64,000 bases of DNA from Candidatus Magasanikiibacteriota bacterium (GCA_003510435.1 DOMK01000018.1:14121-78120); one strand, 5' to 3'; counted from the stretch's first letter, positions 11,037 through 59,790 are shown. The notes: generated from the sequence alone by a model not told the origin. Numbers and translations: made by a program.

Positions 11037-11052
11037 ATATATTATATATCAT

Positions 11053-12792: not shown

Positions 12793-12810
12793 CCTGCCTG
12801 CGCAGGCAGG
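12793..12810. repeat. 18-bp perfect palindrome cctgcctgcgcaggcagg (GC-rich REP-like element)
   Basis: Perfect inverted repeat. A related cctgcct..ggcaggcagg element occurs at 33948-33968 inside a CDS. Confidence 0.4.
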
Positions 12811-12837
12811 TTTAAGTGTTTAAATGTTTCAATGTCT

Positions 12838-13544: not shown

Positions 13545-13576
13545 AGAAGATATAATTAATAATTAATTTTCAATTT

Positions 13577-13617
13577 ATCCCGATTAAATTCGGGATCCCG
13601 TGCTATGTCGGGACAAT
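13577..13617. repeat. Two adjacent palindromic hairpins between rpsF and ssb
   Basis: atcccgattaaattcgggat plus atcccgtgctatgtcgggacaat. The second hairpin recurs at 33443-33465; the first at 12765-12785 and 34802-34820. Confidence 0.5.
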
Positions 13618-13674
13618 TTTCATTTTATAAATATTTTGAAAATTGAAAATTGGTTTTTATAATTTGTTGTATTA

Positions 13675-17436: not shown

Positions 17437-17441
17437 AAATT

Positions 17442-17783
17442 ATGAATCCAATTTTTTACTACATACTACAATTTATTCTCGGTGGGGCTTCAGTAATTAT
17501 TATTACATTAATTGCAAAACATATTGATCCAAAATATACTGGTATTGCCTATGCTTTACCTGTCATTTTGATTTTGGCAGTAATTTTTATTTACTTAAAT
17601 CAAGGTTTGGAAATTGCTCAAAAAACCCTCAAATCAACCTTTGTTTATGAATTCACTTTGGTATATTTTGTACTAGCTTTTTATTTATTTTTACAATGGA
17701 TAAATTTTTGGTGGGCATTAGGAATTGCTTTTATTAGCTGGGCCATTATTGCGACATTAATTCAATTAATTTTTAAACTGTAA
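17442..17783 (+). CDS. Small 4-TM membrane protein, unknown function
   Basis: 113 aa, four hydrophobic helices; tightly linked downstream of pilC. Confidence 0.45.
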   Translation: MNPIFYYILQFILGGASVIIITLIAKHIDPKYTGIAYALPVILILAVIFIYLNQGLEIAQKTLKSTFVYEFTLVYFVLAFYLFLQWINFWWALGIAFISWAIIATLIQLIFKL

Positions 17784-17790
17784 TTATTTT

Positions 17791-18903
17791 ATGAATGAAT
17801 TTAGAACAGACAGAGAAGGACTAGGTATTACAGAAACTGATTTTGTTTTTTCAAAACCAGTTGAATTTAAAAAAGAAAATCCCTACAGAATCATGGGGCT
17901 TTTAAAAAGAGTTCGTGATTTATTTAGAAAAAAAATATCAGAAGAAACCGATGATAAGAAAAGAGAAAAAATAGAAACTGAATTTAAAACAGAATTAGCA
18001 AAAATTGAAGAACAAGATACACGTAATGGTGTTAACTTTTCCCGTTGTCAAATGGTTGACGTCATTAATGACTATCAAAAAGGTAAACCAGTTGAATTTG
18101 AAGCGCTTGGTCCATACATAATGGACTATAATTTAAAGACTGGTGAAATCAAGCCAGAAAATTTAACCAAAACTGATATAGTTGGCCTTGAAATTTCAAG
18201 ACTGCTTAGACAAAAATTTCCCAAAGCGAGATTGATATCCCTGTGTGATGAATACAATACTGGCATATTAGACTCAACAAATTTTCGTGGTATACCAACA
18301 GAAAAAATTATTTCTGATCCCTCTATAAAAGGATTTGTACCAAAGAAAAAAGGCTACGAAGATGATGAACCAAAAGTCACTCCACCAAATGCCACTCAAT
18401 TAACTTTACCAGATGAAACTAAAACAAATTTTAGAAAAAATTATGAACAGCTTTTAAAAAACCAAGGAATTATTAGAGACGACGACAAAGATGGCAAAGA
18501 CTATTTATTAGTTTCAGAAAGTGCAAAAACACAAGAAGCAGATGAATTAGTTAGAAGATTAGAAAAATTAGAAAAAATAAACCGAATAGACCAAGCCATA
18601 TATTTCATAAATCCTAAAGCAGAAAACGCTCTTTATCAAAAAATTAAATTAAAAGACGAAAACGGACAATGGACATGCACCGCTTTAGACGCTGCCTCCT
18701 TTCTAGGAAAAGATAATTCTAAAATAACTCACCTCATTATTTTGCCAAATGATTTTATTAAACAACAAGATCAGGTATGGGAAATTTTAAGGGTACTAGA
18801 CATACAACCAGCTAATTATCATAATATTTTTTATGATGAAAATACCCCGCCAGAACAAGTCGTTGAAACCATTCGCGAAGAAATAGAAAAATATTTAAAA
18901 TAA
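17791..18903 (+). CDS. Hypothetical charged soluble protein (370 aa) in the pilB-pilC operon
   Basis: Long intact ORF, same strand, 8 nt after the preceding gene. No recognisable motif. Confidence 0.5.
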   Translation: MNEFRTDREGLGITETDFVFSKPVEFKKENPYRIMGLLKRVRDLFRKKISEETDDKKREKIETEFKTELAKIEEQDTRNGVNFSRCQMVDVINDYQKGKPVEFEALGPYIMDYNLKTGEIKPENLTKTDIVGLEISRLLRQKFPKARLISLCDEYNTGILDSTNFRGIPTEKIISDPSIKGFVPKKKGYEDDEPKVTPPNATQLTLPDETKTNFRKNYEQLLKNQGIIRDDDKDGKDYLLVSESAKTQEADELVRRLEKLEKINRIDQAIYFINPKAENALYQKIKLKDENGQWTCTALDAASFLGKDNSKITHLIILPNDFIKQQDQVWEILRVLDIQPANYHNIFYDENTPPEQVVETIREEIEKYLK

Positions 18904-18922
18904 AAAATCCAAAAAACCATAC

Positions 18923-18954
18923 AGACTCCCCATAAAGGAGTTTTTTATTTTTTG
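18923..18954. terminator. Terminator hairpin actcc-N7-ggagt followed by a T-run (shared motif actcccca[ct]aaaggagttttt)
   Basis: agactccccataaaggagttttttattttttg. The same motif recurs at 22737-22761. Confidence 0.5.
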
Positions 18955-20396
18955 ATTCTTACAAAATTCTGGTCAGCATTCACTTCTACTACGTCACCAG
19001 TTTGAAATAATTTTGTTGCCAAACCAGTACCAACAATACAAGGCACACCAATTTCACGCGATAATATAGCCGCATGGCACATTATTCCACCTTGATCAGT
19101 CACTACTGCCCCAGCCAATCTCAGAGCAGGGACATATTCCGGGCTCGTCATAGTTGTTATCAAAACTTCGCCTTTTTTAATATTTTTAATTTCACTAGCC
19201 TCGCGAATAATCCGCACTTTACCAATATAACAACCAGCCGAAGCCGTCACACCCAAAAGTAAAGATTTTTTATTTATTACTATTTTTTTGTGTTCCATTA
19301 AAATTTTACTTGCTTCTGCACCCAAAAATATTTTTATGCTATTCTGATTAAATACAAATAAACTGTTGATACTTCTATTTTTTAATTCATCATCTTTTAC
19401 AAAAAGATTATTTAATAAAGCTTTTTCTAATTCTTTTGGCAAATAATATTGCATCAATTCGCGTTGGATATTTAATCTCTTGGCAATTTCTTCTAGTAAA
19501 CCCACAATGTAATAATGAACCAGAGTAAATTTTCCTTTTTTATAATCTTGCAAATAAGTAGCCAAACGTAAATTATTAAACAAATCTTTGTGTACTTTAT
19601 CAATTTTATATTTTTTTTCTAATTCTGTTTGCTGTTTTGGTAATTGATTAAAATATCTTTTGCTACTTAGTAGCCGACTTTCCATATCACCTTGTTTTAA
19701 AATGTGATCCAGCACGATAGAAAAATATTTTTCATTCCACAGATCCAATCCATAATCATAGGGTAACCAAGAATATTTTTGGGCATGTATTTTGATTACT
19801 TTCTCCAAATTAATATTTTTTTTGTTTTTAATTTTTAAAGCAATATTTAACAAATCATCTTCTTCCTGTTTGGCAAAAGATTTTTCTCGTGGGGCTGAAA
19901 GAATTGAATAAGTGGTTGTTAATTCTTCTGAATTATTAATTTTTTTACTTAAATATTCTTTTAAATAGCTACCCAATGACTCTTCTAAACCCAAAACTAT
20001 CGGCTCACTCCAAGGATAAGCTTGCTTATACAACTTTAAATACTTATCAAACATCTGCCAAAGTTCCTGATTGGTTTTTTTATTTAAATTAGTTTTATAA
20101 ATACCAGAAGCCAATTTGGCTAACGGCAACATTTTTTGATTATATTTTTTAATAATTTTATTTAAAAAAATTTTATCTTTTTTAACCAAGACCAAAGCTT
20201 GTTTGGCGACTTTTTTTACTCCAGCTTCCGAAGCATACCAGTACATTACCCCATTCAAATATTCCACCAGAGTAATTCCAAAAGATAGACCCAAAGAATC
20301 TTGCATATTTTTACAATAGGATTGGGCAATAATATATGCATTAGGTATTAAATGAATTCTCTCTTTTTGTTGCATGAAAATATAATCTTTATTCAT
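18945..20396 (-). CDS. PEP-utilizing enzyme mobile (swivel) domain protein
   Basis: C-terminus GGIMCHAAILSREIGVPCIVGTG....GDVVEVNADQNFVRI is the phospho-His swivel domain (PF00391-like). N-terminal ~380 aa unassigned. Confidence 0.7.
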   Translation of the reverse strand: MNKDYIFMQQKERIHLIPNAYIIAQSYCKNMQDSLGLSFGITLVEYLNGVMYWYASEAGVKKVAKQALVLVKKDKIFLNKIIKKYNQKMLPLAKLASGIYKTNLNKKTNQELWQMFDKYLKLYKQAYPWSEPIVLGLEESLGSYLKEYLSKKINNSEELTTTYSILSAPREKSFAKQEEDDLLNIALKIKNKKNINLEKVIKIHAQKYSWLPYDYGLDLWNEKYFSIVLDHILKQGDMESRLLSSKRYFNQLPKQQTELEKKYKIDKVHKDLFNNLRLATYLQDYKKGKFTLVHYYIVGLLEEIAKRLNIQRELMQYYLPKELEKALLNNLFVKDDELKNRSINSLFVFNQNSIKIFLGAEASKILMEHKKIVINKKSLLLGVTASAGCYIGKVRIIREASEIKNIKKGEVLITTMTSPEYVPALRLAGAVVTDQGGIMCHAAILSREIGVPCIVGTGLATKLFQTGDVVEVNADQNFVRIKK

Positions 20397-20401
20397 AAAA
20401 T

Positions 20402-21889
20402 TTAATTATTATTTTGTGGAGTAAGAATCCTTACTGTGCCATGATTAGCTCGCACAGCCACAACATCACCAGTCTTAATTTGGGTAGTGGCGGTGTGAGT
20501 ATCTATTATACATGGTTTACCAGCCAAACGAGCATTAATAGCGGCATGACAAAGCATTCCCCCAGCATTAGTAATTATGGCCCCGGCTTTTTTTATAATT
20601 TCTAACATTTTGTCATCAGTCATCTCGGTAATCAAAATTTCTCCAGCCTGAAACTTTTTTATATCCTCGGCTTTTTCTATCACCCGAGCAACACCTTGGG
20701 CATAGCCCTGTGCCCCCACCTTGCCAGCAATGGCTCGACCCAATTCACTTTGCTGTAAAATTTCTTGCAATTCTTCATAAACTTTTTTAACTTCCACCCC
20801 TTCAATAATTTTGTAATCCTTACCCAATACCGAAAGCAAAAAACCCTGACTAAAACGATTTTTTAGAATTTGTTTTTTTATTAAGCCACGCAACAAATTG
20901 TCCAATTCTTCAAAAGTCAAAAAAAATAAATATTTCTCATCAATGCCTGAAATTTTTGCCAGCAGTTTAAATAGCTTAATCCACAACTCTTGAACTTGCA
21001 AATTAACTCCCTGCCGATATTCGCGCCATTGTCCCAACTCTTTAAAAAACTCCAAAGGATTGGTATCCAATTTATATTTTTTCAAAATTATCATGGTCAA
21101 CTGGCGGTGTTTTTTGGCACGCGCAATCTCCTCTTTGGTATTTTTATTTTTGTCTAAAACTTTTTCACTGGTTAAAAGTTCAGCAATTTCCATTTGCGAA
21201 AAATTATAAATCTTGCCAATTCGTGCTACTTCTTTGTTGTCATAGCCCAAATCAAAACTATCAATAAATATTGCTGTAGACCAAAACTTTTCCAAAATGC
21301 TTTGCCATTGTTTCAAAAATTCTAATAATTCATTTGTATCCCATTCTGCTGGTAAACCAGTCGCATATTCCTGGCAAAACGCTTCTACTTTTTTTCCATA
21401 ATCAAAAAAACTTTCTTTTAGTTCAAAATGTCGCCGGCTTAATTCTCCATATTCTTTATAAACACTTTCTGCCATCTCTGCAAATGCCAAGGTAGTGTGC
21501 CAAAAAACCTCACAAGTGCCATTTTTAAAATACACATCACAAGTCCCCAGACCCTCATCAAAAAATTTGGGGTTAGGATGAACAATACCAGTAATTCTGG
21601 GCCAAAAAATGATCGGGCTTAAAGCCAATATTTGCCGATACATTTTGGGAGCACTCTCTTCGCTTTGTTTTGGTTCAAACTCCACAATATCATTAATTTT
21701 CAGACCATATCTTTCGCACAGCTTGTCCAGGGTGGAAAACCAGACTCCTTCAGCTTTGCCATGAAAAAGTGCAGTAATAGTATTGCGATTTATGCCAGTT
21801 TCTTGGCTAATTTCAGACATATTCTTGCCAAGTTTCTTAGCAATGGTATGGATTTTTAGTTTAATCATACTTTTTTTCAGTGGAATCAT
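20402..21889 (-). CDS. XRE-type HTH fused to a PEP-utilizing enzyme mobile domain
   Basis: N-terminal HTH (IAKKLGKNMSEISQETGINRNTITALFHG). C-terminus AGGMLCHAAINARLAGKPCIIDT...GDVVAVRANHGTVRIL is a swivel domain with the catalytic His context. Confidence 0.7.
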   Translation of the reverse strand: MIPLKKSMIKLKIHTIAKKLGKNMSEISQETGINRNTITALFHGKAEGVWFSTLDKLCERYGLKINDIVEFEPKQSEESAPKMYRQILALSPIIFWPRITGIVHPNPKFFDEGLGTCDVYFKNGTCEVFWHTTLAFAEMAESVYKEYGELSRRHFELKESFFDYGKKVEAFCQEYATGLPAEWDTNELLEFLKQWQSILEKFWSTAIFIDSFDLGYDNKEVARIGKIYNFSQMEIAELLTSEKVLDKNKNTKEEIARAKKHRQLTMIILKKYKLDTNPLEFFKELGQWREYRQGVNLQVQELWIKLFKLLAKISGIDEKYLFFLTFEELDNLLRGLIKKQILKNRFSQGFLLSVLGKDYKIIEGVEVKKVYEELQEILQQSELGRAIAGKVGAQGYAQGVARVIEKAEDIKKFQAGEILITEMTDDKMLEIIKKAGAIITNAGGMLCHAAINARLAGKPCIIDTHTATTQIKTGDVVAVRANHGTVRILTPQNNN

Positions 21890-21997
21890 TAATAATCAGT
21901 GTAATCAATGTTACGCATATTATAGTATATTCAGATAACTTTGTCAATATTTCACAGTTTTTGTAATGGTTTTATTACAAAAATGACCATAATATCA

Positions 21998-22026
21998 TTG
22001 ACAATTAGGGGAAAAATGATTATAAT
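21998..22026 (+). promoter_or_regulatory. Perfect-consensus sigma70 promoter TTGACA-17-TATAAT
   Basis: TTGACA 21998-22003, 17-nt spacer, TATAAT 22021-22026. Drives the leader and ORF at 22155. Confidence 0.55.
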
Positions 22027-22033
22027 ATCCTGT

Positions 22034-22154
22034 TTTACCTAGTGGGTAAGACGCTGATCTTTAAAAACTACTGTTTCCTGGAGGGGAATAGTAGAAAAAA
22101 TATTGTTTTACCCAGTTGGTGAAACAAAACGCTCTTTACAACGGAGGACATAAC
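22034..22154 (+). promoter_or_regulatory. ~120-nt 5' UTR with two direct repeats tgttttaccYagtNggtRa...acgct and a GGAGG Shine-Dalgarno
   Basis: Copy 1: ctgttttacctagtgggtaagacgct (22031-22056). Copy 2: ttgttttacccagttggtgaaacaaaacgct (22103-22133). GGAGG lies 8 nt before the ATG. Confidence 0.35.
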
Positions 22155-22580
22155 ATGAGCGACTGGTTTTTGCCGACAATTCCCGAAATTCTTGTCGGGA
22201 AAAAAATCGCATTCGTGTGGCCAGAAGAAAAGGGCCAGAGTGATTGGGAAAAGATAGAAGGATATGGGGCACCGGAACATTTCGTGGCTCGCGACATTCG
22301 CGAGGGGCTGAGCATTCCTCTCGAGAGAATTGATTATATAGTTCTTTACCAGGGAAAATCTGCAATTTGCACGTACAGAATATTGAGATACCTTAAAGCC
22401 TGTGGGTTCCCCGCGAAAAAAGTATTTGTTGCCCTGTGTGGATGTTCAAGGGAAGACCACGAAATCGTCATGAAAGACATGGGTTTCGAAAGTCTCGCAG
22501 GGGTGATTCCAGTACCCTGCCAAGCTTTCCATCATGTGATTTGTCAGTGGGTTCTCGCACACCACGCTTCTCCTTCTTAG
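22155..22580 (+). CDS. Hypothetical protein (GC-rich island, 141 aa)
   Basis: Strong Shine-Dalgarno; local GC about 50% against a ~33% background. No known domain. Confidence 0.5.
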   Translation: MSDWFLPTIPEILVGKKIAFVWPEEKGQSDWEKIEGYGAPEHFVARDIREGLSIPLERIDYIVLYQGKSAICTYRILRYLKACGFPAKKVFVALCGCSREDHEIVMKDMGFESLAGVIPVPCQAFHHVICQWVLAHHASPS

Positions 22581-22736
22581 ATCACTAGGTGCACAACCTG
22601 GATGATCATCGGGTTTTGCTCGATTACCCTTCAAGTCTGCACAGACAAATCGAGCCTTCCATTGTTTTATTCTTCCCTCCTTCGCTCTACCAAGCTACGG
22701 AGGATAATAAAAGGATAAAATTTAGAAAGAAAAAAA

Positions 22737-22761
22737 CAAAACTCCCCACAAAGGAGTTTTT
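22737..22761 (+). terminator. Terminator hairpin aaaactcc-ccacaaa-ggagtttt
   Basis: 8-bp stem followed by a T-run; same motif as 18923-18954. Confidence 0.5.
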
Positions 22762-22784
22762 GTGATATAATATTACCAACACAT

Positions 22785-22809
22785 AACACGAGACACATAT
22801 CACGTAACA
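22785..22809 (-). repeat. Interspersed repeat; 25-nt exact copy (reverse orientation) of 59763-59787
   Basis: rc of aacacgagacacatatcacgtaaca equals tgttacgtgatatgtgtctcgtgtt, identical to 59763-59787. Diverged copies at 27214-27250 and 32891-32920. Confidence 0.6.
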
Positions 22810-22845
22810 ATTGATATGTGATATGTGTTATATGATACGTGAATT

Positions 22846-23940
22846 ATGTTCAACAACCCTTTCCCCAACGCCTTTGGTCTAGATATTGGGGACCTATCAA
22901 TAAAATTAGTTCAACTTAGAAATGTTTCCTTGATCCGTAGGAAGCCAACTTATCAACTAATAAATTTTCGTTCTATAAGTTTACCACCTGGTTTAATTGT
23001 TAATGGTGAATTGCAAAAACCAGAAGAGGTTAGACTGCGTATTCAACGTTTATTAAAAGGTAATAAAAATCAAAAACCAATTACTGACCCATGGGTCATA
23101 TCAGTCTTACCCGAAATGCAAAGCTTTATAAAATTGATTGATACTGAACAAAATATTGAGGATCTGCTAGATGAGGATATAAAAGAACTAGCCAAAAAAC
23201 ATATTCCTTATGATGATGATGGTAGTTATTATGTGGAATGGCAAATTATGCCAAAAGTTGGTGATAAAAATAGAATCCTCATTGGCGCTGTACCAAAAAC
23301 TATTGCTGATAGTTATACTTATTTATTAGAAAGTTTAGGCTTGGGTGTAGTGGCTTTAGAAATTGAGGCCTTGCCCATTGCCCGGTCTATGATTACCGCG
23401 AGTAAAGAATATGAAAACGAAGCCAGAGCCCTTCTAGATCTCGGCGCAGCCAGGTCTAGTTTTATTGTTTATGATCATGACATTGTCCAATTTAGCACGA
23501 GCATTCCTTTTTCTGGAGAAATTATTACCACAGCTCTATCACAACAATTACATGTTAGCCATGAAGAAGCCGAGGCTTTAAAAATAAAACAGGGTTTGGA
23601 ATATAATAAAGGTAATAAAGTGTGGCGAGTAAATACTAAAATAATTGATGACTTGGTCAAAAATATAAAAGATGCCATTGAATTTTATTATTCTCATTTT
23701 TCCAATCCAAATAAAATAACCAGAATTACCATGTGTGGTGGTACGGCTAATATAAAAAAATTAGACAAAATATTATCTACCAAATTAAAAATCACGACTC
23801 GACCCGGGCACCCTTGGAAAAATCTTTCTTCCAACAAATCTATCCCTATGTCCGAAGAAGAGTCTATTAGTTATTCCACTGCTATTGGCCTAGCCCTAAG
23901 GGCGGCTGATAATCCATTTTTTACTTACGACGCTCTATGA
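22846..23940 (+). CDS. pilM: Type IV pilus assembly protein PilM (actin-like ATPase fold)
   Basis: N-terminus FGLDIGDLSIKLVQL; 364 aa; followed by pilN and pilO with overlapping stops and starts. Confidence 0.8.
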   Translation: MFNNPFPNAFGLDIGDLSIKLVQLRNVSLIRRKPTYQLINFRSISLPPGLIVNGELQKPEEVRLRIQRLLKGNKNQKPITDPWVISVLPEMQSFIKLIDTEQNIEDLLDEDIKELAKKHIPYDDDGSYYVEWQIMPKVGDKNRILIGAVPKTIADSYTYLLESLGLGVVALEIEALPIARSMITASKEYENEARALLDLGAARSSFIVYDHDIVQFSTSIPFSGEIITTALSQQLHVSHEEAEALKIKQGLEYNKGNKVWRVNTKIIDDLVKNIKDAIEFYYSHFSNPNKITRITMCGGTANIKKLDKILSTKLKITTRPGHPWKNLSSNKSIPMSEEESISYSTAIGLALRAADNPFFTYDAL

Positions 23941-27113: not shown

Positions 27114-27213
27114 ATTTTTATTTTTAAAAATTAATATATATAAACATTATCATTTCAACCAAAAATAGTCAAATAGCACACTTTATAAAAATTAAACTCC
27201 AAAAACATATAAT

Positions 27214-27250
27214 TTGTGTTATGTGGTTCGTGATATGTGATCGTGTTATT
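27214..27250 (+). repeat. Diverged copy of the gtgttaYgtg..gatatgtg interspersed repeat
   Basis: tttgtgttatgtggttcgtgatatgtgatcgtgtt; about 85% identical to 59758-59790. Confidence 0.5.
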
Positions 27251-29060
27251 CAAACAACTTTTCCACTTTCACCCCTGTATAATAATGCTTTAATAATTCT
27301 ACAAAATCAGCCCCTTCATTTTTCGCTCGCAAATTGGCATCGCGCTGACTCATACCCACACCATGACCTAGTATCTTTTTACCTTTGTCATATTCTGCTG
27401 TCACTGGCACTAACCACGGCTTATTGGCTCCACCCCAAACGCTAGAAAAGCTCTTAGTTTTGCCATTACTATTACCAAAATATGGTGTAGTCACGACTTC
27501 ATCATTATAAGTCACAAACACTCCTCGTGTAGCTTCCTGAGCCTCTACGACCATTGGTAAGACTTCTTCGGCTTCATAGCCAAGATAGAGTTGATCATAA
27601 GTATTGGCCACCACATCAAAAAATGGATATTTATTTCTTGAAACATAAACATAATTACGTGCGGCTACCAAATTCGCTTTGATAAATTCAATTGAATCAG
27701 CTCTGCCAACTTCGGCCATACCCTTTACATAATCCTCTATTAACAAATCATTAACAATATACATTTTTTTATCAACTATTCCCTGACGGTACTCCACTGC
27801 CCCACGATATTTATTAAACAATTTATTTGGATCCACCCACTTAGCTACTCGAGTATTCAAATTTGGAATATGAAAAACTGCATTGGGCTTCGTAGTTGGT
27901 TCCAGACGAATAAAATTTTCACTACTAAAATCTAAATCCCCACCTTTAAAACTATATTCACCATCATTATATTTAATAACAACAAATTTTCTTTCTAATA
28001 AAATTCCTTTTAATTCATTACCACTAAATACATTATAATCATCTTCATAAGATCGAAATTGAATAAAATTTGTTTCCGGTGCAGTTATGCCTACTCTTAC
28101 TCTTGGCTCATTTTCCAAACGAATATTATTTACTACACCATTATCTTCTACTTCAGTTTCCAATTCTGATACTTCATATTCATCTGGTGCATCAGCTGTC
28201 ACTGTAACTGGGATGTTAACTTCATCAATGAATTTTCCTTCATCAATCTCTAATTTAAATTTGGCAACATAATCACCTTTTTTGGCTGGGGTACGGAAAT
28301 AAAATGTTTCCCGTAAAAACTTAGCTGGTAAAATCTCTTCTTCTTTTTCAAATACTTTACCACTACTATTCCAAGTTCTATCTGAATAAATTTTATCTTC
28401 ATTAGTCAATTTATATTTATTCCAAGTGTTCTGACCTTCATTTTGATAACCAAGAATAATTTTAATTTGTTCTCCCCCGATAGCTGTCACCGACTTCTTA
28501 CTCAAAATTAATCTTTTAGCGCTATAACTAGAATCATTGACACTAGGCGCTATTTCATCTTCTACTGGTACTTCCACCACTATCTTTTTTGGTACAACTT
28601 TTATTTTAAAATAAAAATAGCCACTCTTTACCCAAGAATAATTTTCTGCAGCCAAATAAAATTTTTCTATATATTCTCCAGTCTTTTCTGGCGCTTGCAA
28701 ATCAATGGTCAGTTCGGCCACTCCACCTGGTTTTACTTGAGCGGATATTTTCCCAGTTTGTTTGCCATTCGTCCAATTTTTGCCTTTAAAAACAGATACT
28801 CGATCTCTTGGCTCCATAGTATAGGCAGAAATAAAACGACTACCAGAAGAATTCCAAGTAGCTGTCCCGGTATTTTTAAATTTTATTACCACGGTCTTCG
28901 TACTACCAGCCTCAATTTCAATTGGGTCAGATACTGACTGAGAGACATATTTGGCAGAATAGGCCTCGTCTTTTATCACTACCTCTGGTTCAACGGCTTT
29001 AGCTGAATTCATTAAAAATAAACTAAATATTATAGCGAAAAATATGGTTTTTTTATTCAT
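27246..29060 (-). CDS. SpoIID/LytB-domain protein with N-terminal signal peptide
   Basis: Signal peptide MNKKTIFFAIIFSLFLMNSAKA. C-terminus GHGVGMSQ...HYYTGVKVEKL is a SpoIID/LytB signature. Confidence 0.8.
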   Translation of the reverse strand: MNKKTIFFAIIFSLFLMNSAKAVEPEVVIKDEAYSAKYVSQSVSDPIEIEAGSTKTVVIKFKNTGTATWNSSGSRFISAYTMEPRDRVSVFKGKNWTNGKQTGKISAQVKPGGVAELTIDLQAPEKTGEYIEKFYLAAENYSWVKSGYFYFKIKVVPKKIVVEVPVEDEIAPSVNDSSYSAKRLILSKKSVTAIGGEQIKIILGYQNEGQNTWNKYKLTNEDKIYSDRTWNSSGKVFEKEEEILPAKFLRETFYFRTPAKKGDYVAKFKLEIDEGKFIDEVNIPVTVTADAPDEYEVSELETEVEDNGVVNNIRLENEPRVRVGITAPETNFIQFRSYEDDYNVFSGNELKGILLERKFVVIKYNDGEYSFKGGDLDFSSENFIRLEPTTKPNAVFHIPNLNTRVAKWVDPNKLFNKYRGAVEYRQGIVDKKMYIVNDLLIEDYVKGMAEVGRADSIEFIKANLVAARNYVYVSRNKYPFFDVVANTYDQLYLGYEAEEVLPMVVEAQEATRGVFVTYNDEVVTTPYFGNSNGKTKSFSSVWGGANKPWLVPVTAEYDKGKKILGHGVGMSQRDANLRAKNEGADFVELLKHYYTGVKVEKLFE

Positions 29061-30180: not shown

Positions 30181-30347
30181 ATAAATATTGGTTATAAATT
30201 TATAATTATTACAATAATATTATGGAATATTTTTATATTAACATAATGTATATAAAAAAACAAGATTATTGTAATCTTAGAGAAAAAATGATAAACTGGA
30301 CATACACATACAAAATATAGCGGACAAAATACAACCTGTATGTTGAT

Positions 30348-31799
30348 ATGTGTATTTTGTATATTGTTAATATGACTACAACCAGAACAATCGCCCACAA
30401 TACAATTTACCAAATAATTGGCAAAATATTCTCCACCGCTTTAGGTCTTTTGGCCTTGGGTATGATGACCAGGTACTTGGGCCAAGAAAAATTTGGTTGG
30501 TATATTACGACCATGGCTTTTTTGCAATTTATTGGTATTATGATAGATTTTGGCTTAATTCCAGTCACCTCCCAAATGATGAGTGAACCTGACCATGATA
30601 AAACCAAATTATTCAAAAATTTACTAGGCTTTAGATTTGTAACCGCCATTATTTTCTTAGCATTGGCTCCAGCCATTGCTTTATTTTTCCCCTATAATGC
30701 TGAAATAAAAATCGCGATTGCCATTAGTACTATTACTTTTTTATCAGTCGCCATAAACCAAGTCTTACTGGGTTTTTTTCAAACTAGATTAAAAATGCAT
30801 ATTCAAGCAATTGGCGAAAATATTGGTAGGATCGTTTTGGTGATTGGACTTTGGTTAGTAATCAAACAACAAATGGATTTCATTTCTGTTATGTGGATCG
30901 TAGTTTTAAACAGTGTGGCTTATACCGCTTTTCTATTGTTATCAGCCAAAAAATACACCCCAATATCTTTTGGCTTTGATTGGTCAATTTGGAAAAGTAT
31001 CATGACAAAAATGTGGCCCATTGCCATTTCCATTATTTTCAATGTGATTTATCTCAAGGGCGATACTGTTTTATTATCTATTTTCAAAACTCAAGCTGAA
31101 GTTGGTCTCTATGGTGCGGCTTATCGCGTAATAGATATTTTTTCTCAGACTGCTATGATGATTATGGGTGTTATGCTCCCACTGATGGCATATAATTGGT
31201 CACGCGATATCAAAGACCATTTTAAAAAATATTATCAAATGTCTTTTGACATTCTCATGCTCTTGGCTGTGCCAATTTTGGTAGCTTCTATAATTTTGGC
31301 TGAAAAAATAATTTTATTAGTTGGTGGAATAAAATTTGTAGGTGCCACACCAATTTTACAGATTTTATCTTTAGCTGTTTTTGGTCTTTATCTTGGGGCA
31401 GTCTTTGGTCACACCGCAGTAGCCATTGATAAACAAAAACAAACCATGTGGATTTACATTTCTGATTCTATTATTACTCTTACTGGTTATTTAATATTTA
31501 TTCCCCTCTATGGTATGTACGGCGCGGCCTGGATGACAGTATTTTCCGAACTCTATGCAGGAATTTTATTATGGTTTGTAATAAAAAAACATACAAAAGA
31601 AAAACTAAAATTAAATACTTTTGGAAAGATTATTTTTGCCAGTCTAGTGATGGGAGCCACACTTTTATATTTAAAACAATTAAATATTATTGTGTTAGCC
31701 ATAATTGGTATTGTCGTCTATGGTTTAATATTAATCTTGACCAAGGGAATTTCTAAACAAACGATTTCAGAAATTATTTCTATTAAAAAAGATGTTTAA
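30348..31799 (+). CDS. Polysaccharide biosynthesis protein, MOP/Wzx-type flippase
   Basis: About 12-14 TM segments; the true start is possibly the Met at 30372. Confidence 0.75.
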   Translation: MCILYIVNMTTTRTIAHNTIYQIIGKIFSTALGLLALGMMTRYLGQEKFGWYITTMAFLQFIGIMIDFGLIPVTSQMMSEPDHDKTKLFKNLLGFRFVTAIIFLALAPAIALFFPYNAEIKIAIAISTITFLSVAINQVLLGFFQTRLKMHIQAIGENIGRIVLVIGLWLVIKQQMDFISVMWIVVLNSVAYTAFLLLSAKKYTPISFGFDWSIWKSIMTKMWPIAISIIFNVIYLKGDTVLLSIFKTQAEVGLYGAAYRVIDIFSQTAMMIMGVMLPLMAYNWSRDIKDHFKKYYQMSFDILMLLAVPILVASIILAEKIILLVGGIKFVGATPILQILSLAVFGLYLGAVFGHTAVAIDKQKQTMWIYISDSIITLTGYLIFIPLYGMYGAAWMTVFSELYAGILLWFVIKKHTKEKLKLNTFGKIIFASLVMGATLLYLKQLNIIVLAIIGIVVYGLILILTKGISKQTISEIISIKKDV

Positions 31800-32700
31800 A
31801 TTAAAACCAGAAACAATTGGAACGATTTTTATTTTACTCGGCAACATCTTGTACGGAGCGTTTATTGTAATCGTAAATCAAACCACCAAACAAATTCAGC
31901 CATTATTTTTTGCTTCAATTTCTGTTCTTATCGCCAGTTTGACTACTCTAGTCTATGCTTTTTACAAGGGTAAATTAAAAGAACTCAAAATACGCAAGAG
32001 TTATTATCCAATTTTAATGACCACATTATTTATTGTAATAATTCCTTTCACTTTATTTTTTATTGGGGCTAGCAAAACATCTGGTATCAATTCTTCTTTA
32101 CTCCTCTTATCTGAAATCATTTTTACTGTCATTATCACCCCATTTTTTGGCGAAACAACTTCTCTTTATAAAATTCTTGGCGCGGGTGGAATTTTTTTAG
32201 GAGCAATTTTTATTTTATATAATAATAATTTTAAAATAAATATTGGTGACATTCTTATTATATTAAGCACCTTAACATTCCCCTTAGGAAATTTTTATGC
32301 CAAAAAAGCCCTTAATTTAGTTTCTTCAGAAATAATTCTTTTCATCAGGTTTTTATTAGGTGGTCTAGTTATTGGTACTCTTTCCTTAATGTTTGAACCC
32401 ACAAACTTAATCAAAAATTCAATTGTAAATCATTGGCCAATCATTTTATTAAATGGCATATTACTATTAAGTGTTAGCAAAATGTTTTATTATGAGGCTC
32501 TGAAAAGAATGGACATCTCAAAAACCATTTCACTTGGTATGACCTTTCCCATATATAGTTTGTTAATTCTAACTATATTTTTTAAAGAAGAAATAACTCC
32601 ATACAAATGGATTGGTATAGCTGTAATGCTAATTGGTGTATATTTCACCATAAAAAGAAAATCTGTTGATCCAAAACTAACCAAATATGCTCACAACTAA
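31792..32700 (+). CDS. DMT-superfamily (EamA-like) transporter
   Basis: 10 TM segments, two EamA-like halves. Confidence 0.7.
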   Translation: MFKLKPETIGTIFILLGNILYGAFIVIVNQTTKQIQPLFFASISVLIASLTTLVYAFYKGKLKELKIRKSYYPILMTTLFIVIIPFTLFFIGASKTSGINSSLLLLSEIIFTVIITPFFGETTSLYKILGAGGIFLGAIFILYNNNFKINIGDILIILSTLTFPLGNFYAKKALNLVSSEIILFIRFLLGGLVIGTLSLMFEPTNLIKNSIVNHWPIILLNGILLLSVSKMFYYEALKRMDISKTISLGMTFPIYSLLILTIFFKEEITPYKWIGIAVMLIGVYFTIKRKSVDPKLTKYAHN

Positions 32701-34174
32701 CACAATACTGTTTACTGTTTACTGTTTACTGTTTACTTATCTGGCCTGGAAAAATTTTCCCTGGGGACTTTATCTTTTCTTTTTTCTTTTACCAACCTAT
32801 TTAATTAGATTTAATATTGGCCCATTACCTACTACCTTATTGGAAGTTATGCTGTGGATAATTACCATAATCTGGCTAATAAAATATCATTCACATATCA
32901 TATACCACATAACACATACCACAAAACAAAATAAAATATTATTTATTGGAATCGCCGTATTTCTATTATCCGCGACAGTATCTATCTTTACTTCCACAGA
33001 CGTTCGTTCGGCACTCGGAGAATGGAAAGCCTTTTATATTGAACCAATAATATTATTTTTAATTTTGATAACCACTTTTAACCCTAAAAATTACCCACCG
33101 GAACAGACTCAACTGGATCAAAAGATCAAAAGATCAAAAGATCAATTTTCTGTCCGATCTTCCGATCTTCCGATCTTCCGATCTTCGATTATCAACCACA
33201 TAATCTTCGCTCTAATTCTATCCGGACTAATTACTTCAGTATTAGCAATATATCAACACTTCACCGGCTGGATGGTACCATACGCCTTTTGGCAAAACCA
33301 AAACACATTTCGTGTCACAGCTTGGTATGGTTTTCCCAACGCGGTCGGATTATTTTTGACACCACTTTTTCCGTTAGCAATATATGGTCTGAAAGAAAGC
33401 ATAAAAAATAAATCTTTCAATCTTTTCCCGACAGAGTACGGGATCCCGTATTATATCGGGACAATCTTTCAATCTTTAATAAAAATTATTCTTTATTCCT
33501 TATTCCTTATTTTATCTCCACTAGCAATACTATATTCAAAAGGTACCGGTCCACTCATTGGACTTGTCGCTGGCATTGGCATATTATTACTATTTTACAA
33601 AAAAACTCGCTGGCCAACTGTTATTTTAAGTCTAATTTGCCTTTCAAGCCTTTTTAGCTTTTCCAGCCTTTCAAGCCTGAAGAATGAGGTTCTTCTCCAA
33701 GATCGCTCTGGTCAAATTCGTTTATCTATTTGGAACGAGACTTGGCAATTTCTTAAAGACAACCCTATTACTGGCGCTGGTCTAGCTTCCTATCAAGAAA
33801 AAATCAAACCTTATCACACAACAGTTAATGGTGAAGGCATAGAAATTTTTCATCATCCACACAATATATTTTTGACTATGTGGATTAATCTGGGTCTATT
33901 AGGTTTAGCAAGTTTTATTGGAATTTTAGTTTCCTTATTCCTTATTCCCTGCCTCACCGGCAGGCAGGCTTATTCCTTATTCAAAAAAAATGAAAACATC
34001 CCAATCATACAATACTTTCTAACTGCTTCTTTAACAACGATAATTGTCACTGGCTTAGTCGACAGTCCATATATCAAAAACGATCTCTCAATTTTATTCT
34101 GGCTTTTGCCAGCTTTATTAATCATGAATTCGTCCAAATCACAATCAGTGAAATCTTTAAATAAATCAACGTAA
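32687..34174 (+). CDS. O-antigen ligase / Wzy_C family membrane protein
   Basis: HHPHNIFLTMWINLGLLGL motif (H.HN....E.G..G of O-antigen ligases); many TM segments. Contains several in-frame repeat elements. Confidence 0.7.
   Translation: MLTTNTILFTVYCLLFTYLAWKNFPWGLYLFFFLLPTYLIRFNIGPLPTTLLEVMLWIITIIWLIKYHSHIIYHITHTTKQNKILFIGIAVFLLSATVSIFTSTDVRSALGEWKAFYIEPIILFLILITTFNPKNYPPEQTQLDQKIKRSKDQFSVRSSDLPIFRSSIINHIIFALILSGLITSVLAIYQHFTGWMVPYAFWQNQNTFRVTAWYGFPNAVGLFLTPLFPLAIYGLKESIKNKSFNLFPTEYGIPYYIGTIFQSLIKIILYSLFLILSPLAILYSKGTGPLIGLVAGIGILLLFYKKTRWPTVILSLICLSSLFSFSSLSSLKNEVLLQDRSGQIRLSIWNETWQFLKDNPITGAGLASYQEKIKPYHTTVNGEGIEIFHHPHNIFLTMWINLGLLGLASFIGILVSLFLIPCLTGRQAYSLFKKNENIPIIQYFLTASLTTIIVTGLVDSPYIKNDLSILFWLLPALLIMNSSKSQSVKSLNKST
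32706..32733 (+). repeat. Tandem heptanucleotide repeat (tactgtt) x4 in codons 7-16 of the Wzy ligase gene
   Basis: tactgtttactgtttactgtttactgtt; unit length is not a multiple of 3. Confidence 0.7.
32891..32920 (-). repeat. In-CDS copy of the gtgttatgtgg..gatatgtga interspersed repeat
   Basis: rc is ggtatgtgttatgtggtatatgatatgtga; 22 of 25 positions match 27219-27243. Confidence 0.45.
33116..33186 (+). repeat. Inverted pair of 8-nt tandem repeat arrays, (gatcaaaa)x3.5 then (cgatcttc)x4, inside the Wzy ligase CDS
   Basis: Period-8 arrays that are near reverse complements of each other; eight GATC sites in 71 nt. Confidence 0.7.
33426..33465 (+). repeat. Two REP-like hairpins inserted in frame in the Wzy ligase CDS
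   Basis: tcccgacagagtacggga plus atcccgtattatatcgggacaat; the second is about 88% identical to 13595-13617. Confidence 0.5.
33948..33968 (+). repeat. GC-rich palindrome cctgcctcaccggcaggcagg flanked by direct repeats cttattccttattc
   Basis: Related to the 12793-12810 palindrome; flanks ttccttattccttattc / cttattccttattc. Confidence 0.4.
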
Positions 34175-51025: not shown

Positions 51026-51126
51026 TATAGCAAAAATAATTTATATTTTCAAGATTAGAAATAAAAAAACACCCAGTCTATAAAGAGGGGGTGTTTTGTA
51101 ATTTTGTATATTCTGTATTTTGTATA

Positions 51127-52522: not shown

Positions 52523-52816
52523 AATTTTTCCTTTGTCCTCCCAATCGCGGCTCTAACAAGTGGTTGTTAAAGAGGAAAAAATGCGAAAGGTGAGGGATAA
52601 ATTAGTGCCAATATAATACTAAATCTAACCTTATTTGTCAATGGCATATATAATATAAGTGTTAATAACATAATTTTAAAATACAATATACACACAACAA
52701 AATACAAAATTGTATATTGTTCCATGTATTTTGTATGTTATTAATCTACACAAACATGGTATTTACACCCAAACTTTGATATAATATAAACACTTTTATA
52801 ATTAAACATAAATTAT

Positions 52817-53881: not shown

Positions 53882-53925
53882 CATTGATTACACTGATTGT
53901 GAGTTGAGATTACACAGATTAAAAC

Positions 53926-59723: not shown

Positions 59724-59756
59724 CAAAATCCGCTGATCAGGCAGATTTTATTTTTT
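59724..59756 (+). terminator. Terminator of the GC-rich cassette
   Basis: aaaatccgctgatcaggcagattttattttttg; imperfect palindrome around tgatca plus T-run. An additional 7-bp hairpin gtgccgg/ccggcac lies at 59659-59682. Confidence 0.5.
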
Positions 59757-59760
59757 GTTA

Positions 59761-59790
59761 TGTGTTACGTGATATGTGTCTCGTGTTTTA
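59761..59790 (+). repeat. Interspersed repeat copy (tgttacgtgatatgtgtctcgtgtt)
   Basis: Exact 25-nt reverse-complement match to 22785-22809. Confidence 0.6.

What the first reader, a model, noticed from the sequence alone, without database searches (positions are those of the whole stretch)
22785..22809. Interspersed short repeat family gtgttaYgtg..cgtgatatgtg (4 copies, one 25-nt exact inverted match, one copy inside a CDS)
- 59763-59787 (plus strand) is identical to the reverse complement of 22785-22809.
- 27214-27250 is about 85% identical.
- 32891-32920 lies in frame inside the Wzy ligase gene and is about 88% identical to the 27214 copy.
Three of the four copies abut GC-rich or compositionally atypical genes. 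The family is possibly a MITE-like element or a recombination/attachment site that marks cassette junctions. Related motifs (gatatgtgtattttgtatatt) occur in the leaders at 30335-30365, 51095-51125 and 52700-52750.
Basis: seen in the sequence. Interest (0 to 1): 0.6.

Follow-up and report, generated by a model that had tools for sequence, protein, structure and literature searches.

The report
Polar heptad-repeat spacers after stop codons
The four "copies" are sets of a tandem 7-base repeat (CAC-R-T-A-W, usually four units) found in many Patescibacteria, placed directly after stop codons on the sense strand, alone or as inverted pairs; it is a new, phylum-wide relative of known intergenic heptamer repeats and its function is unproven.

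Summary
The match 22785-22809 / 59763-59787 is an exact inverted 25-mer, and the 27.2 kb and 32.9 kb copies are 88-89% identical over 26-27 nt. The unit is not a 25-37 nt element. It is an array of tandem heptamers with consensus CACRTAW.

- **Polarity.** The C/A-rich strand is the sense strand of the upstream gene, and the array starts 0-7 nt after that gene's stop codon, or supplies it.
- **Pairing.** Arrays occur singly or as CAC-arm/GTG-arm inverted pairs, never the reverse order. Pairs can fold into imperfect hairpins that end a few nt before an SD-less ATG.
- **Turnover.** Close relatives lack the arrays at orthologous sites, while copies within a lineage share the private heptad CACGAGA. 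This is copy-and-spread, REP/MITE-like behaviour.
- **Cargo.** In other genomes the two arms enclose a small 23S-rRNA-IVP/Avd-like gene.

In this window the arrays do not mark the island junctions; a duplicated terminator does.

Best reading: a transcribed extragenic repeat family, a new variant of the TAACTGA/STRR kind. The mechanism is inferred, not shown.

The parts
22776..22810 (+). Left (CAC) arm of an inverted heptad pair: CACATAA CACGAGA CACATAT CACGTAA, running into the palindromic centre CAATTG. It contains the reported 25-mer.
   Evidence: It lies 8 nt downstream of an extended -10 box (TGATATAAT, 22763-22771) and a bidirectional terminator (22738-22760).
22811..22845 (-). Right (GTG) arm of the same pair. 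The + strand reads TTGATAT GTGATAT GTGTTAT ATGATAC GTGAATT. It ends 0-4 nt before the pilM ATG at 22846, and there is no SD.
   Evidence: TRF period 7, 4.4 copies; the hairpin 22776-22848 folds at -22.2 kcal/mol, z = -4.2. The PilM 69% relative L184 has the same terminator and -10 box but only 'ACACATAAT' before its ATG.
27212..27245 (-). Single array read on the - strand: CACGAT CACATAT CACGAAC CACATAA CACAAAT. It starts directly after the TAA stop (27246-27248) of the SpoIID-domain gene 27246-29060(-).
   Evidence: It is unstructured as RNA. It is absent from the orthologous SpoIID 3' ends in L183-L185.
32891..32928 (+). Heptad-like run in the sense orientation inside the Wzy_C gene: CACATAT CATATAC CACATAA CACATAC CACAAAA. 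It encodes the loop SHIIYHITHTTKQ, and every TAA is out of frame.
   Evidence: 23/26 identity to the 27.2 kb copy. It is not an indel relative to 7 homologues.
59751..59787 (-). Single array read on the - strand: AA CACGAGA CACATAT CACGTAA CACATAA CAAAAAA. It starts 2 nt after the stop (59788-59790) of the class II ribonucleotide reductase gene and is followed by a terminator hairpin at 59725-59749.
   Evidence: It is unstructured as RNA. It is absent from the RNR 3' flanks of relatives at 96%, 84% and 80% identity.
30296..30370 (+). Looser second family: a C/A-rich arm followed by a G/T-rich arm (TGTATGT TGATATG TGTATTT TGTATAT). It ends 2 nt before the likely ATG (30373) of the Polysacc_synt gene.
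   Evidence: The fold is weak (z = -1.0).
52676..52745 (+). Looser second family: an inverted pair (AAATACAATATACACACAACAAAATACAAAA / TTGTATATTGTTCCATGTATTTTGTATGTTATT) upstream of the promoter of the AI-2E transporter gene.
   Evidence: D18; -15.8 kcal/mol, z = -3.4.
51094..51126 (-). Looser second family: a single C/A-rich array read on the - strand, directly after the EF-Ts stop (51127) and followed by a terminator hairpin.
   Evidence: It is unstructured as RNA.

Best explanation
The finding is a family of extragenic tandem heptanucleotide repeats. The consensus is 5'-CAC-R-T-A-W-3', typically 4 units (range 3-6). The family is shared by many Patescibacteria; the window comes from a Candidatus Magasanikbacteria genome.

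**Shown**
- The arrays are polar. The C/A-rich strand is the sense strand of the upstream gene, and the array begins 0-7 nt after that gene's stop codon or supplies the stop.
- An array is followed by one of three things: an ordinary terminator, the next gene, or a second array in inverted orientation.
- Pairs always read CAC arm first, then GTG arm.
- Arrays are gained and lost between close relatives.
- Copies within a lineage share private variant heptads.

**Inferred**
- The arrays spread by copying, through slippage plus gene conversion or an unidentified mobilisation, as REP, STRR and TAACTGA-type repeats are thought to do.
- They are transcribed as part of the upstream gene's mRNA, and they are tolerated or used only in the orientation that is translationally inert. 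The CAC strand has 0.04 start codons and 2.5 stop codons per array and is G-poor and unstructured. The GTG strand has 6.6 start codons per array.
- A single array would be an unstructured 3'-UTR or intercistronic spacer, and possibly a platform for a single-strand RNA-binding protein.
- An inverted pair would fold into an imperfect 17-32 bp stem. That stem would cap the 3' end of the upstream message or the 5' end of the downstream SD-less message, or would be an RNase III site, as the stems of rRNA intervening sequences are.
For: **Periodicity and consensus**
-. Across 109 heptads, position 4 is A 57 / G 51, position 5 is T 97, position 6 is A 106, and position 7 is A 53 / T 38.

**Breadth**
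- A 38-bit pattern found 16 GTDB loci, 15 of them labelled Patescibacteria (Magasanikbacteria, Moranbacteria, Paceibacterota).

**Polarity**
- 38 of 138 arrays have a same-strand ORF whose stop lies within -10..+7 nt of the array start. Only 6 arrays have a convergent stop at the other edge.
- Among 83 single arrays, 32 sense-strand ORF ends lie within -12..+21 nt, against 3 antisense ends. A second count gave 23 stop-adjacent against 3 start-adjacent.
- The stop codon is in register with the heptads in 17 of 38 cases.
- Orientation follows the gene strand, not the replichore: the window's GC skew is uniform, yet arrays lie on both strands.

**Pair geometry**
- 37 CAC..GTG pairs were found. 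No GTG..CAC pair lies within 450 nt.

**Constraint**
- At the rplU 3' end, the array is 41/41 identical between two species, while the adjacent coding sequence is 62/89 identical.

**Turnover and copying**
-.

**Coding properties and downstream genes**
- Start and stop codon content of the two strands.
- Downstream ATGs lie 2-25 nt after the GTG arm, and none has an SD-like motif.

**Folds**
- Pairs fold at -16 to -39 kcal/mol. Single arrays fold at about 0 kcal/mol.

**Published analogue**
- TAACTGA repeats in Beggiatoaceae are a polar intergenic heptamer family of the same kind (PMC4679880).
Against: - No transcript data exist, so transcription of the arrays with the upstream gene is inferred from position only.
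- The G-U asymmetry test for an RNA stem was inconclusive: the sense strand was more stable in 7 pairs and the antisense strand in 6.
- The two arms match each other at the variable positions less well than random heptads do (0.51 against 0.63 +/- 0.035). Base pairing is therefore not what is conserved, and the heptad consensus itself must be read by something still unidentified.
- Arrays are absent from orthologous sites in close relatives, so no gene depends on them.
- The locus sample was ascertained with heptad patterns and ORFs were called crudely.
- A DNA-level reader cannot be excluded.
Confidence: 0.5

Rival explanations
1. DNA-level protein-binding arrays. Each heptad would be bound by one dimer of a ribbon-helix-helix protein, as the omega repressor/ParB of inc18 plasmids binds unspaced 5'-WATCACW-3' heptads. 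The arrays would then act as operators or centromere-like sites.
For: - Re-registered, the consensus reads T-A-W-C-A-C-R, and about half the heptads contain ATCAC.
- Omega sites are unspaced 7-bp heptads in direct or inverted order. The preferred minimal sites are ->-> and -><-, which is the arrangement seen here (PMC2441792).
- At least four contiguous heptads are needed for ParA activation in that system (PMC9499535), and here four is the modal number.
- The two arms are constrained to the heptad consensus, not to complement each other.
- At pilM the pair lies between the -10 box and the ATG.
Against: - The strong polarity of single arrays relative to the upstream gene's stop codon has no reason under a symmetric DNA reader.
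- Many arrays lie between convergent genes, or between a stop codon and a terminator, where there is no promoter.
- The flanking genes are unrelated housekeeping genes.
- No RHH family appears among the 25 of 35 Pfam families that one search lists for the window's 30 small ORFs. None appears among the families listed for 120 array neighbours.
- Arrays are dispensable at orthologous sites.
Confidence: 0.12
2. The arms are the terminal inverted repeats of a small mobile or IVS-like cassette. The loaded form would carry a 23S-rRNA-IVP/Avd-like gene. Empty pairs would be its MITE-like derivatives and single arrays would be solo ends.
For: - All four pairs with a 384-416 nt gap enclose a PF05635 gene (L019, L077, L119, L154), and L090 does so with a variant right arm.
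- PF05635/bAvd is the only family recurring more than twice among 120 array-adjacent ORFs.
- Only the CAC-outside geometry occurs.
- Presence or absence differs between relatives, and private variants are shared within a lineage.
Against: - No transposase or integrase appears among the families listed, and I saw no target-site duplication.
- IVP genes of similar sequence are flanked by quite different 7-8 nt arrays (L174, L179, L181, L146). The IVP ORF may therefore simply colonise hairpin loops.
- Single arrays are polar and far more common than pairs (83 singles).
- The window contains no IVP gene.
- The island junctions in the window are a duplicated terminator, not arrays.
Confidence: 0.15
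3. A compact factor-loading or fail-safe signal at gene ends. It would be either a Rho-utilisation-like C-rich, G-poor, unstructured tract exposed once the ribosome stops, or a set of back-up stop codons covering all three frames.
For: - The CAC strand is 30% C and 10% G and is unstructured.
- The array starts right after the stop codon.
- There are 2.5 stops per array, and 33 of 96 arrays close all three frames.
- The polarity fits both ideas.
Against: - The arrays are only 21-42 nt long and only about a third of heptad junctions give a YC dimer. From my own knowledge, rut sites are about 60-80 nt.
- Many arrays are immediately followed by an intrinsic terminator, which makes Rho loading redundant.
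- The commonest heptad, CACATAT, carries no stop, and 13 of 96 arrays close no frame.
- A published survey found no selection for additional stops in bacteria (title of PMC6764699, seen; the paper was not read).
- Arrays are dispensable in relatives.
Confidence: 0.08
4. Function-less microsatellites. Heptamer repeats arise by replication slippage, and heptamers are the commonest long simple repeat class in many bacteria. They would persist only where they are harmless.
For: - Heptanucleotide repeats are the most abundant long simple-repeat class in most genomes (Mrazek 2007, as summarised in PMC4679880).
- Occasional expansions to 9-22 units occur (L099, L137).
- Perfect (CACATAA)n runs occur in virus contigs.
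- This window is generally rich in period-7 and period-8 repeats.
Against: - Typical arrays are not perfect repeats. They are mixtures of CACGTAA and CACATAT with a fixed consensus shared across classes of Patescibacteria.
- The array length is narrowly distributed around four units.
- The array is 100% conserved next to 70% conserved coding sequence.
- The inverted-pair geometry is strict.
Confidence: 0.1

Closest known systems
TAACTGA intergenic heptamer direct repeats of marine Beggiatoaceae, some Cyanobacteria and Bacteroidetes (MacGregor 2015, PMC4679880)
   Same: - Sets of 2-6 tandem 7-nt units, almost all intergenic.
- Strongly polar relative to flanking genes.
- The forward strand carries stop codons, so the sets can only abut or barely overlap ORF ends.
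- Downstream genes usually lack a canonical RBS.
- Flanking genes have no common function.
- Phylogenetic distribution is sporadic and no mobilisation mechanism is known.
   Different: - The heptamer is different (CACRTAW, with two alternating variants).
- The lineage is different (Patescibacteria).
- The arrays are anchored to the upstream stop codon, not 1 nt before the downstream start.
- Inverted pairs are frequent (37 found here; the paper reports one inverted repeat in 170 sets).
- The arms sometimes enclose an IVP/Avd-like gene.
REP / BIME elements of Enterobacteria and Pseudomonas (from my own knowledge)
   Same: - Short extragenic repeats in transcribed 3' and intercistronic regions, often within a few nt of the stop codon.
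- Single, or in inverted pairs.
- Variable between strains.
- Thought to affect mRNA ends.
   Different: - A single REP is itself an imperfect palindrome. A single heptad array has no self-complementarity (about 0 kcal/mol) and has an internal 7-nt period.
- No RAYT-type transposase was seen near the arrays.
Omega (RHH) heptad operators / parS of inc18 plasmid pSM19035
   Same: - Unspaced 7-bp units with an ATCAC-like core, in direct and head-to-head order.
- About four or more units are needed for activity.
   Different: - Omega sites have 7-10 units and lie in three promoters beside the omega gene.
- Here the arrays have 3-6 units, lie after stop codons of unrelated chromosomal genes, and are polar.
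- No RHH gene was detected nearby.
Intervening sequences (IVS) of 23S rRNA carrying a PF05635 ORF (from my own knowledge)
   Same: An inverted-repeat stem that may be empty or may enclose a 23S_rRNA_IVP gene of about 120 aa. Distribution is sporadic.
   Different: The elements here lie between protein-coding genes, not in rRNA helices. The arms are built from tandem heptads. RNase III processing has not been tested.
HutP and TRAP RNA targets (from my own knowledge)
   Same: Triplets repeated with a fixed spacer (HutP: UAG-N4, period 7) on the 5' side of a hairpin, read by a ring-shaped protein.
   Different: No such protein is identified here. The arrays occur at many unrelated genes and are not conserved at orthologous sites.

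Membership tests
Intergenic polar heptanucleotide direct-repeat sets (TAACTGA / STRR kind) | Tandem direct repeats of a 7-nt unit, a few copies per set | tested here: met
   Period 7 with 3-6 units.
Intergenic polar heptanucleotide direct-repeat sets (TAACTGA / STRR kind) | Predominantly intergenic and oriented with respect to flanking genes | tested here: met
   38 against 6; 32 against 3. Three of the four window copies are intergenic.
Intergenic polar heptanucleotide direct-repeat sets (TAACTGA / STRR kind) | Same heptamer sequence as a described family (TAACTGA, CCCCAGT and so on) | tested here: not met
   The consensus is CACRTAW. No paper containing these sequences describes such repeats.
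REP / BIME | Each unit is an imperfect palindrome of 20-40 nt | tested here: not met
   Single arrays fold at 0 to -1.1 kcal/mol with z > 0.
REP / BIME | Associated RAYT (Y1 transposase) genes | tested here: inconclusive
   None appears among the 25 of 110 families listed for 120 neighbouring ORFs. Whole genomes were not searched.
MITE | Terminal inverted repeats plus a target-site duplication, and a related autonomous element with a transposase | tested here: not met
   Inverted arms exist. However, the flanks are T-rich/A-rich palindromic extensions and not direct repeats (by eye). The only cargo is a PF05635 gene.
Omega-type RHH heptad operator / type Ib parS | Unspaced 5'-WATCACW-3' heptads | tested here: inconclusive
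   Re-registered, the consensus is TAWCACR. Only heptads with T at the W position match ATCAC (definition).
Omega-type RHH heptad operator / type Ib parS | Sites lie in promoters next to a cognate RHH gene and ParA | tested here: not met
   The arrays follow stop codons. No RHH family appears among those listed for the window's small ORFs.
Intrinsic terminator | G+C-rich hairpin followed by a U tract | tested here: not met
   The arrays themselves lack it. Of 38 stop-adjacent arrays, only 5 are followed by such a hairpin under a strict test, and most GTG arms have no T run after them.
rRNA-type intervening sequence with IVP ORF | Inverted-repeat stem enclosing a PF05635 ORF | tested here: met
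   Met in L019, L077, L090, L119 and L154, but not in the window itself.
rRNA-type intervening sequence with IVP ORF | Inserted in a 23S rRNA helix and excised by RNase III | tested here: not met
   The elements lie between protein-coding genes. Excision cannot be tested with these tools.
Rho utilisation site | About 60-80 nt C-rich, G-poor unstructured RNA that loads Rho | not testable with these tools
   The composition fits (C 30%, G 10%), but the length is only 21-42 nt. The presence of rho was not examined.

The most novel reading that the evidence does not exclude
The CACRUAW arrays could be RNA binding sites for a ring-shaped protein, read one heptad per subunit as TRAP and HutP read spaced triplets. 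A candidate reader is the Avd-like 23S-rRNA-IVP four-helix-bundle protein; Avd is a pentamer, and the arrays have 4-5 units. Its gene is repeatedly found enclosed between a CAC arm and a GTG arm. Binding to the CAC arm would keep the GTG arm free and so control processing, read-through or translation of the next SD-less gene. This would give a Patescibacteria-wide post-transcriptional system, and a function for a large orphan protein family.
Probability: 0.06. Interest if true: 0.8.

Novelty: new variant of a known kind. Interest (0 to 1): 0.55.

Why it matters
Patescibacteria have tiny genomes, mostly lack Shine-Dalgarno-led initiation in this lineage, and almost nothing is known about how their transcripts are delimited.

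- **A handle on gene-boundary signals.** This is a sequence-conserved, strand-polar element placed exactly at the stop codon in many species. It can be followed experimentally in uncultured bacteria.
- **A second polar heptamer family.** It extends the poorly understood class of polar intergenic heptamer repeats (TAACTGA, STRR) to another phylum, with clearer positional rules.
- **A link to an orphan protein family.** It ties such repeats to the widespread 23S-rRNA-IVP/Avd-like family, whose function is unknown.
- **Annotation.** GTG arms are full of false start codons that extend ORF calls. CAC arms often supply the real stop codon.

Tried and rejected
- **Rfam.** Searches at gathering and at E-value thresholds found no family on any array. 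The only overlap was RF03532 at E = 1.
- **tRNA or tmRNA.** None found near the arrays.
- **G-U asymmetry test.** Comparing sense and antisense fold energies to separate an RNA stem from a DNA palindrome was inconclusive, 7 against 6.
- **Arm-arm covariation.** The arms match less well than random heptads. I therefore dropped the idea that the hairpin itself is the conserved feature.
- **Generic heptad pattern on viral contigs.** This mostly returned perfect (CACATAA)n, (CACATAT)n and (CACATAG)n microsatellites in giant-virus and phage bins, which is a different thing.
- **Literature by sequence strings and by Patescibacteria terms.** Nothing relevant.
- **Arrays as junctions of the GC-rich cassettes.** Rejected; the junctions are a duplicated terminator.
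- **Wzy copy as an in-frame insertion.** Rejected by alignment with homologues.
- **Cognate small DNA- or RNA-binding gene in the window** (RHH, CSD, S1, KH, IVP). None appears among the families listed.
- **Ideas considered from memory and dropped.** NrdR boxes (real ones lie upstream of RNR at about 63550-63600), parS, DnaA boxes and -10-like promoter elements. In each case spacing or position does not fit.

Full report
**1. The observation**

The reported 25-mer is exact. TGTTACGTGATATGTGTCTCGTGTT occurs at 59763-59787(+) and 22785-22809(-), and nowhere else at up to 3 mismatches. There were no matches in 100 shuffles. The match extends to 28/30 (I9).

The other two copies are real:
- 27213-27239 matches 59752-59778 at 24/27.
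- 27215-27240 matches the reverse complement of 32891-32916 at 23/26.

The 32.9 kb copy lies in frame in a Wzy_C gene.

**2. What the repeat really is**

The copies resemble each other because each is a run of tandem heptamers. The window holds four runs of at least 3 GTG at period 7, against 0.08 expected. TRF reports period 7 or 14 at each site.

Read on the C/A-rich strand, the units are:
- 22.8 kb: CACATAA CACGAGA CACATAT CACGTAA
- 59.8 kb: CACGAGA CACATAT CACGTAA CACATAA
- 27.2 kb: CACGAT CACATAT CACGAAC CACATAA CACAAAT
- Wzy: CACATAT CATATAC CACATAA CACATAC CACAAAA

At 22.8 kb a second array in inverted orientation follows directly across a CAATTG centre (22811-22845). The pair folds at -22.2 kcal/mol with z = -4.2. 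The single arrays have no structure.

The 'related motifs' at 30.3, 51.1 and 52.7 kb are a looser set of 7-9 nt C/A- or G/T-rich arrays with the same layouts.

**3. Distribution**

The window is a groundwater Candidatus Magasanikbacteria contig.

A degenerate pattern covering the three intergenic copies was scanned over one genome per GTDB species. It returned 16 loci:
- 8 Magasanikbacteria
- 5 'Patescibacteria group'
- 1 Moranbacteria
- 1 Paceibacterota
- 1 labelled Gammaproteobacteria

My own estimate is about 9 chance hits over the whole 596 Gb. Every hit shows further heptads beyond the pattern.

From these loci the consensus is CAC-R-T-A-W. CACATAT and CACGTAA are the commonest units and often alternate.

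A generic pattern on viral contigs gave mostly perfect microsatellites, which are a different thing. Some high-GC contigs carry (CACGTAG)n arrays; I did not pursue these.

**4. Anatomy and rules**

These counts use loci with GC below 0.48.

*(a) Polarity*
- 38 of 138 unique arrays start within -10..+7 nt of the stop of an ORF of at least 80 aa on the same strand. Only 6 have a convergent stop at the other edge.
- Among 83 single arrays, 32 sense-strand ORF ends lie within -12..+21 nt of the array start. Only 3 antisense ends lie in the equivalent range.
- In 17 of 38 cases the stop codon is in register with the TAA or TAG of a heptad.
- In the window, orientation follows the neighbouring gene although GC skew is uniform.

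*(b) What follows an array*
- Stop-adjacent arrays are followed by an inverted arm (13 cases), by a canonical terminator (at least 5 cases), or by the next gene.

*(c) Pair geometry*
- There are 37 CAC-arm/GTG-arm pairs. 31 have gaps of 0-150 nt.
- No pair in the opposite order lies within 450 nt.

*(d) Downstream starts*
- After GTG arms, the next long ORF's ATG lies 2-25 nt away. None has an SD-like motif.

*(e) What is conserved*
- The arms are not selected to complement each other. The match at the variable positions is 0.51, against 0.63 +/- 0.035 for random heptads.
- Fold energies show no sense or antisense preference.
- The conserved thing is therefore the heptad, not the helix.

*(f) Coding properties of the two strands*
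- The CAC strand is 30% C and 10% G, with 2.5 stop codons and 0.04 start codons per array.
- The GTG strand has 6.6 start codons per array.

*(g) Neighbouring genes*
- The flanking genes are unrelated housekeeping genes: L21, S18, GrpE, SucD, an aaRS, MraZ/RsmH, ParB, LemA, PEP carboxylase, MgsA, DnaG and QueH. In the window they are RNR, SpoIID and PilM.

**5. Evolution**

Arrays can be strongly conserved. At the rplU 3' end of two species the array plus A-tract is 41/41 identical, next to coding sequence that is 62/89 identical. The mraZ-rsmH spacer carries a pair in two species.

They are also dispensable:
- The RNR 3' flank has no array in relatives with 96%, 84% and 80% identical RNR.
- The SpoIID 3' end has none in three relatives.
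- About 99 kb of unselected sequence from relatives holds one array, against five arms in the 64 kb window.

That one array in the relatives follows the AI-2E transporter stop in the 96% relative. It carries the same odd heptad, CACGAGA, as the window's exact 25-mer. Copies are therefore propagated within a lineage.

Upstream of pilM the layout differs between relatives:
- L184 has terminator, TGATATAAT, ACACATAAT, then ATG.
- The window has the same terminator and -10 box with the 66-nt heptad hairpin added.
- L183 has an unrelated CAAGG-type array hairpin at the same place.
- L185 has a plain 26-nt hairpin.

**6. The cassette idea**

In relatives, pilC and pilM are adjacent. In the window they are separated by about 5.3 kb. 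This stretch holds a DUF3147 gene, a 370-aa ORF, two PEP-utilizer genes and the GC-rich ORF 22155-22580.

The terminator hairpin ACTCCCCAnAAAGGAGTTTT is present twice, at 18923-18943 and 22738-22760. The island is bounded by that duplication, not by the heptads.

The GC-rich ORFs have their own consensus promoters and SD sequences. One of them matches phrog_26039. Their proximity to arrays looks incidental.

The Wzy copy is not an insertion. Seven homologues have a loop of the same length, for example KSVIRYQITKIIKENK against HSHIIYHITHTTKQNK. Even so, 23/26 identity to another copy cannot be chance. A conversion-like event is my inference.

**7. A recurrent partner**

All four pairs with a 384-416 nt gap enclose a PF05635 23S_rRNA_IVP/bAvd gene, and a fifth does so with a variant right arm. 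Among 120 ORFs within 250 nt of arrays, this is the only family found more than twice (5 members). No transposase is listed.

IVP genes elsewhere are enclosed by inverted arrays of other 7-8 nt units: TCTGCAW, AATTTTC and ACATAAAA. The layout recalls rRNA intervening sequences, which have an inverted-repeat stem with or without this ORF (my own knowledge). The window has no IVP gene.

**8. Interpretation**

The polarity, the strict pair geometry, the housekeeping context and the dispensability argue against a specific operator or centromere. This is despite the striking formal likeness to omega/RHH heptads: WATCACW, unspaced, ->-> and -><- preferred, at least 4 units.

They fit a transcribed extragenic repeat family that spreads by copying and survives only in the translationally inert orientation. 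In a lineage that starts translation without SD sequences, a GTG-strand array would present six to seven start codons unless it is paired with a CAC arm.

Whether the arrays also do something remains untested. Possibilities are an unstructured spacer, a platform for a single-strand RNA-binding protein, a hairpin that protects an mRNA end, or an RNase III site. The fixed consensus across classes implies a reader or copier that I could not identify.

**9. Comparison with what is known**

The closest published case is the TAACTGA heptamer sets of Beggiatoaceae. There are 2-6 copies per set. They are intergenic and polar, with stops on the forward strand and no RBS on downstream genes. Their distribution is sporadic and their mechanism is unknown. 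S1, Csp and CsrA were suggested as readers (PMC4679880).

The present family differs in four ways:
- the heptamer sequence
- the phylum
- anchoring to the stop codon
- frequent inverted pairs and the IVP cargo

I found no description of it by sequence or by topic, and Rfam has nothing. I therefore rate it a new variant of a known kind, of moderate interest.

**10. Caveats**

- Loci were found with heptad patterns. The search is strand-symmetric, so it should not create the polarity.
- ORFs were called mechanically.
- No expression data exist.
- Several comparisons (REP, IVS, HutP/TRAP, rut) rest on my own knowledge.

Noticed in passing
window 32687-34174 (32706-32737, 33116-33145, 33153-33186): The Wzy/O-antigen-ligase gene carries perfect tandem repeats with units that are not multiples of three: TACTGTT x4.6, GATCAAAA x3.8 and TCCGATCT x4.2. 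The two 8-mers lie in an insertion of about 32 aa that is absent from 7 homologues. This may be a slippage-prone (phase-variable) surface gene.
   Followed up: partly
window 13575-13620 and 33423-33468: A 42-46 nt palindromic element (TTxTCCCGA...GGGATCCCG...TCGGGACAA, 78-83% identical) occurs once between genes and once in frame inside the Wzy gene. In Wzy it corresponds to an insertion of about 15 aa relative to homologues. This is a separate small repeat family.
   Followed up: partly
window 17437-22760: About 5.3 kb is inserted between pilC and pilM compared with relatives L184 and L185. It holds a DUF3147 gene, a 370-aa ORF, two PEP-utilizer genes (one with an HTH domain) and a GC-rich ORF. 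A terminator hairpin, ACTCCCCAnAAAGGAGTTTT, is duplicated at 18923-18943 and 22738-22760.
   Followed up: partly
window 22155-22580, 58887-59237, 59239-59625: Three small ORFs with atypically high G+C have consensus TTGACA/TATAAT-type promoters, clear SD sequences (rare in this genome) and a shared leader, ACGMTCTTTACAAGGAG. ORF 59239-59625 matches phrog_26039 (E = 1e-29). The others match nothing in Pfam, PHROGs or NCBIfam.
   Followed up: partly
window 41502-41607 and 53922-54027: A GC-rich repeat pair (56 nt at 80% and 32 nt at 91% identity) lies downstream of two + strand genes. It could be a shared terminator or a small structured RNA.
   Followed up: no
window 63540-63600: Two NrdR-box-like palindromes (ACTACTATATATAGTGT and ACCACAATAGGTTGTGTT) lie upstream of the class II ribonucleotide reductase gene. 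They were recognised from memory of the consensus and were not tested.
   Followed up: no
window 12810-12835, 63724-63772, 11037-11068: Further short-period arrays: a period-8 C/A-rich run right after the S18 stop; five CAC-N5 units (period 8) upstream of the gene starting at 63868; and ATATATC x4.6 between a TTGACA box and the ATG of the 121-aa ORF 10671-11036.
   Followed up: no
window 55260-55306 and 56343-56389: A 47-nt direct repeat at 91% identity (TATCATAACAAATTAAATAAAAAAACTCAATCT...). Each copy ends in a terminator-like hairpin. One copy lies next to tRNA-Leu (56394-56478).
   Followed up: no
L019:1029-1466, L077, L090, L119, L154; L146, L174, L179:1006-1389, L181:5672-6037: In other Patescibacteria, 23S_rRNA_IVP/bAvd (PF05635) genes are enclosed by inverted arrays of 7-8 nt tandem units. 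Several unrelated unit sequences occur: CACRTAW, TCTGCAW, AATTTTC, ACATAAAA and an AGCTA type. The layout resembles an rRNA intervening sequence but lies between protein-coding genes.
   Followed up: partly
L074, L139, L148, L157, L160, L171, L172 (metagenome contigs, GC 0.63-0.67): High-GC bacteria of unknown identity carry several (CACGTAG)n arrays per few kb, often ending in CACGTGA. Their relation to the Patescibacteria arrays is unknown.
   Followed up: no
L183:4880-5000: In a PilM 76% relative, an unrelated array hairpin built from CAAGG/CCTTG-type units of 8-9 nt lies between the -10 box and the ATG of pilM. This is the same spot where the window has the heptad hairpin, so it looks like a hotspot for different hairpin repeats.
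   Followed up: partly
window 44371-44469 (-): A SAM (S-box) riboswitch (64.5 bits, above the gathering score) lies upstream of the - strand ORF 42415-44199.
   Followed up: no
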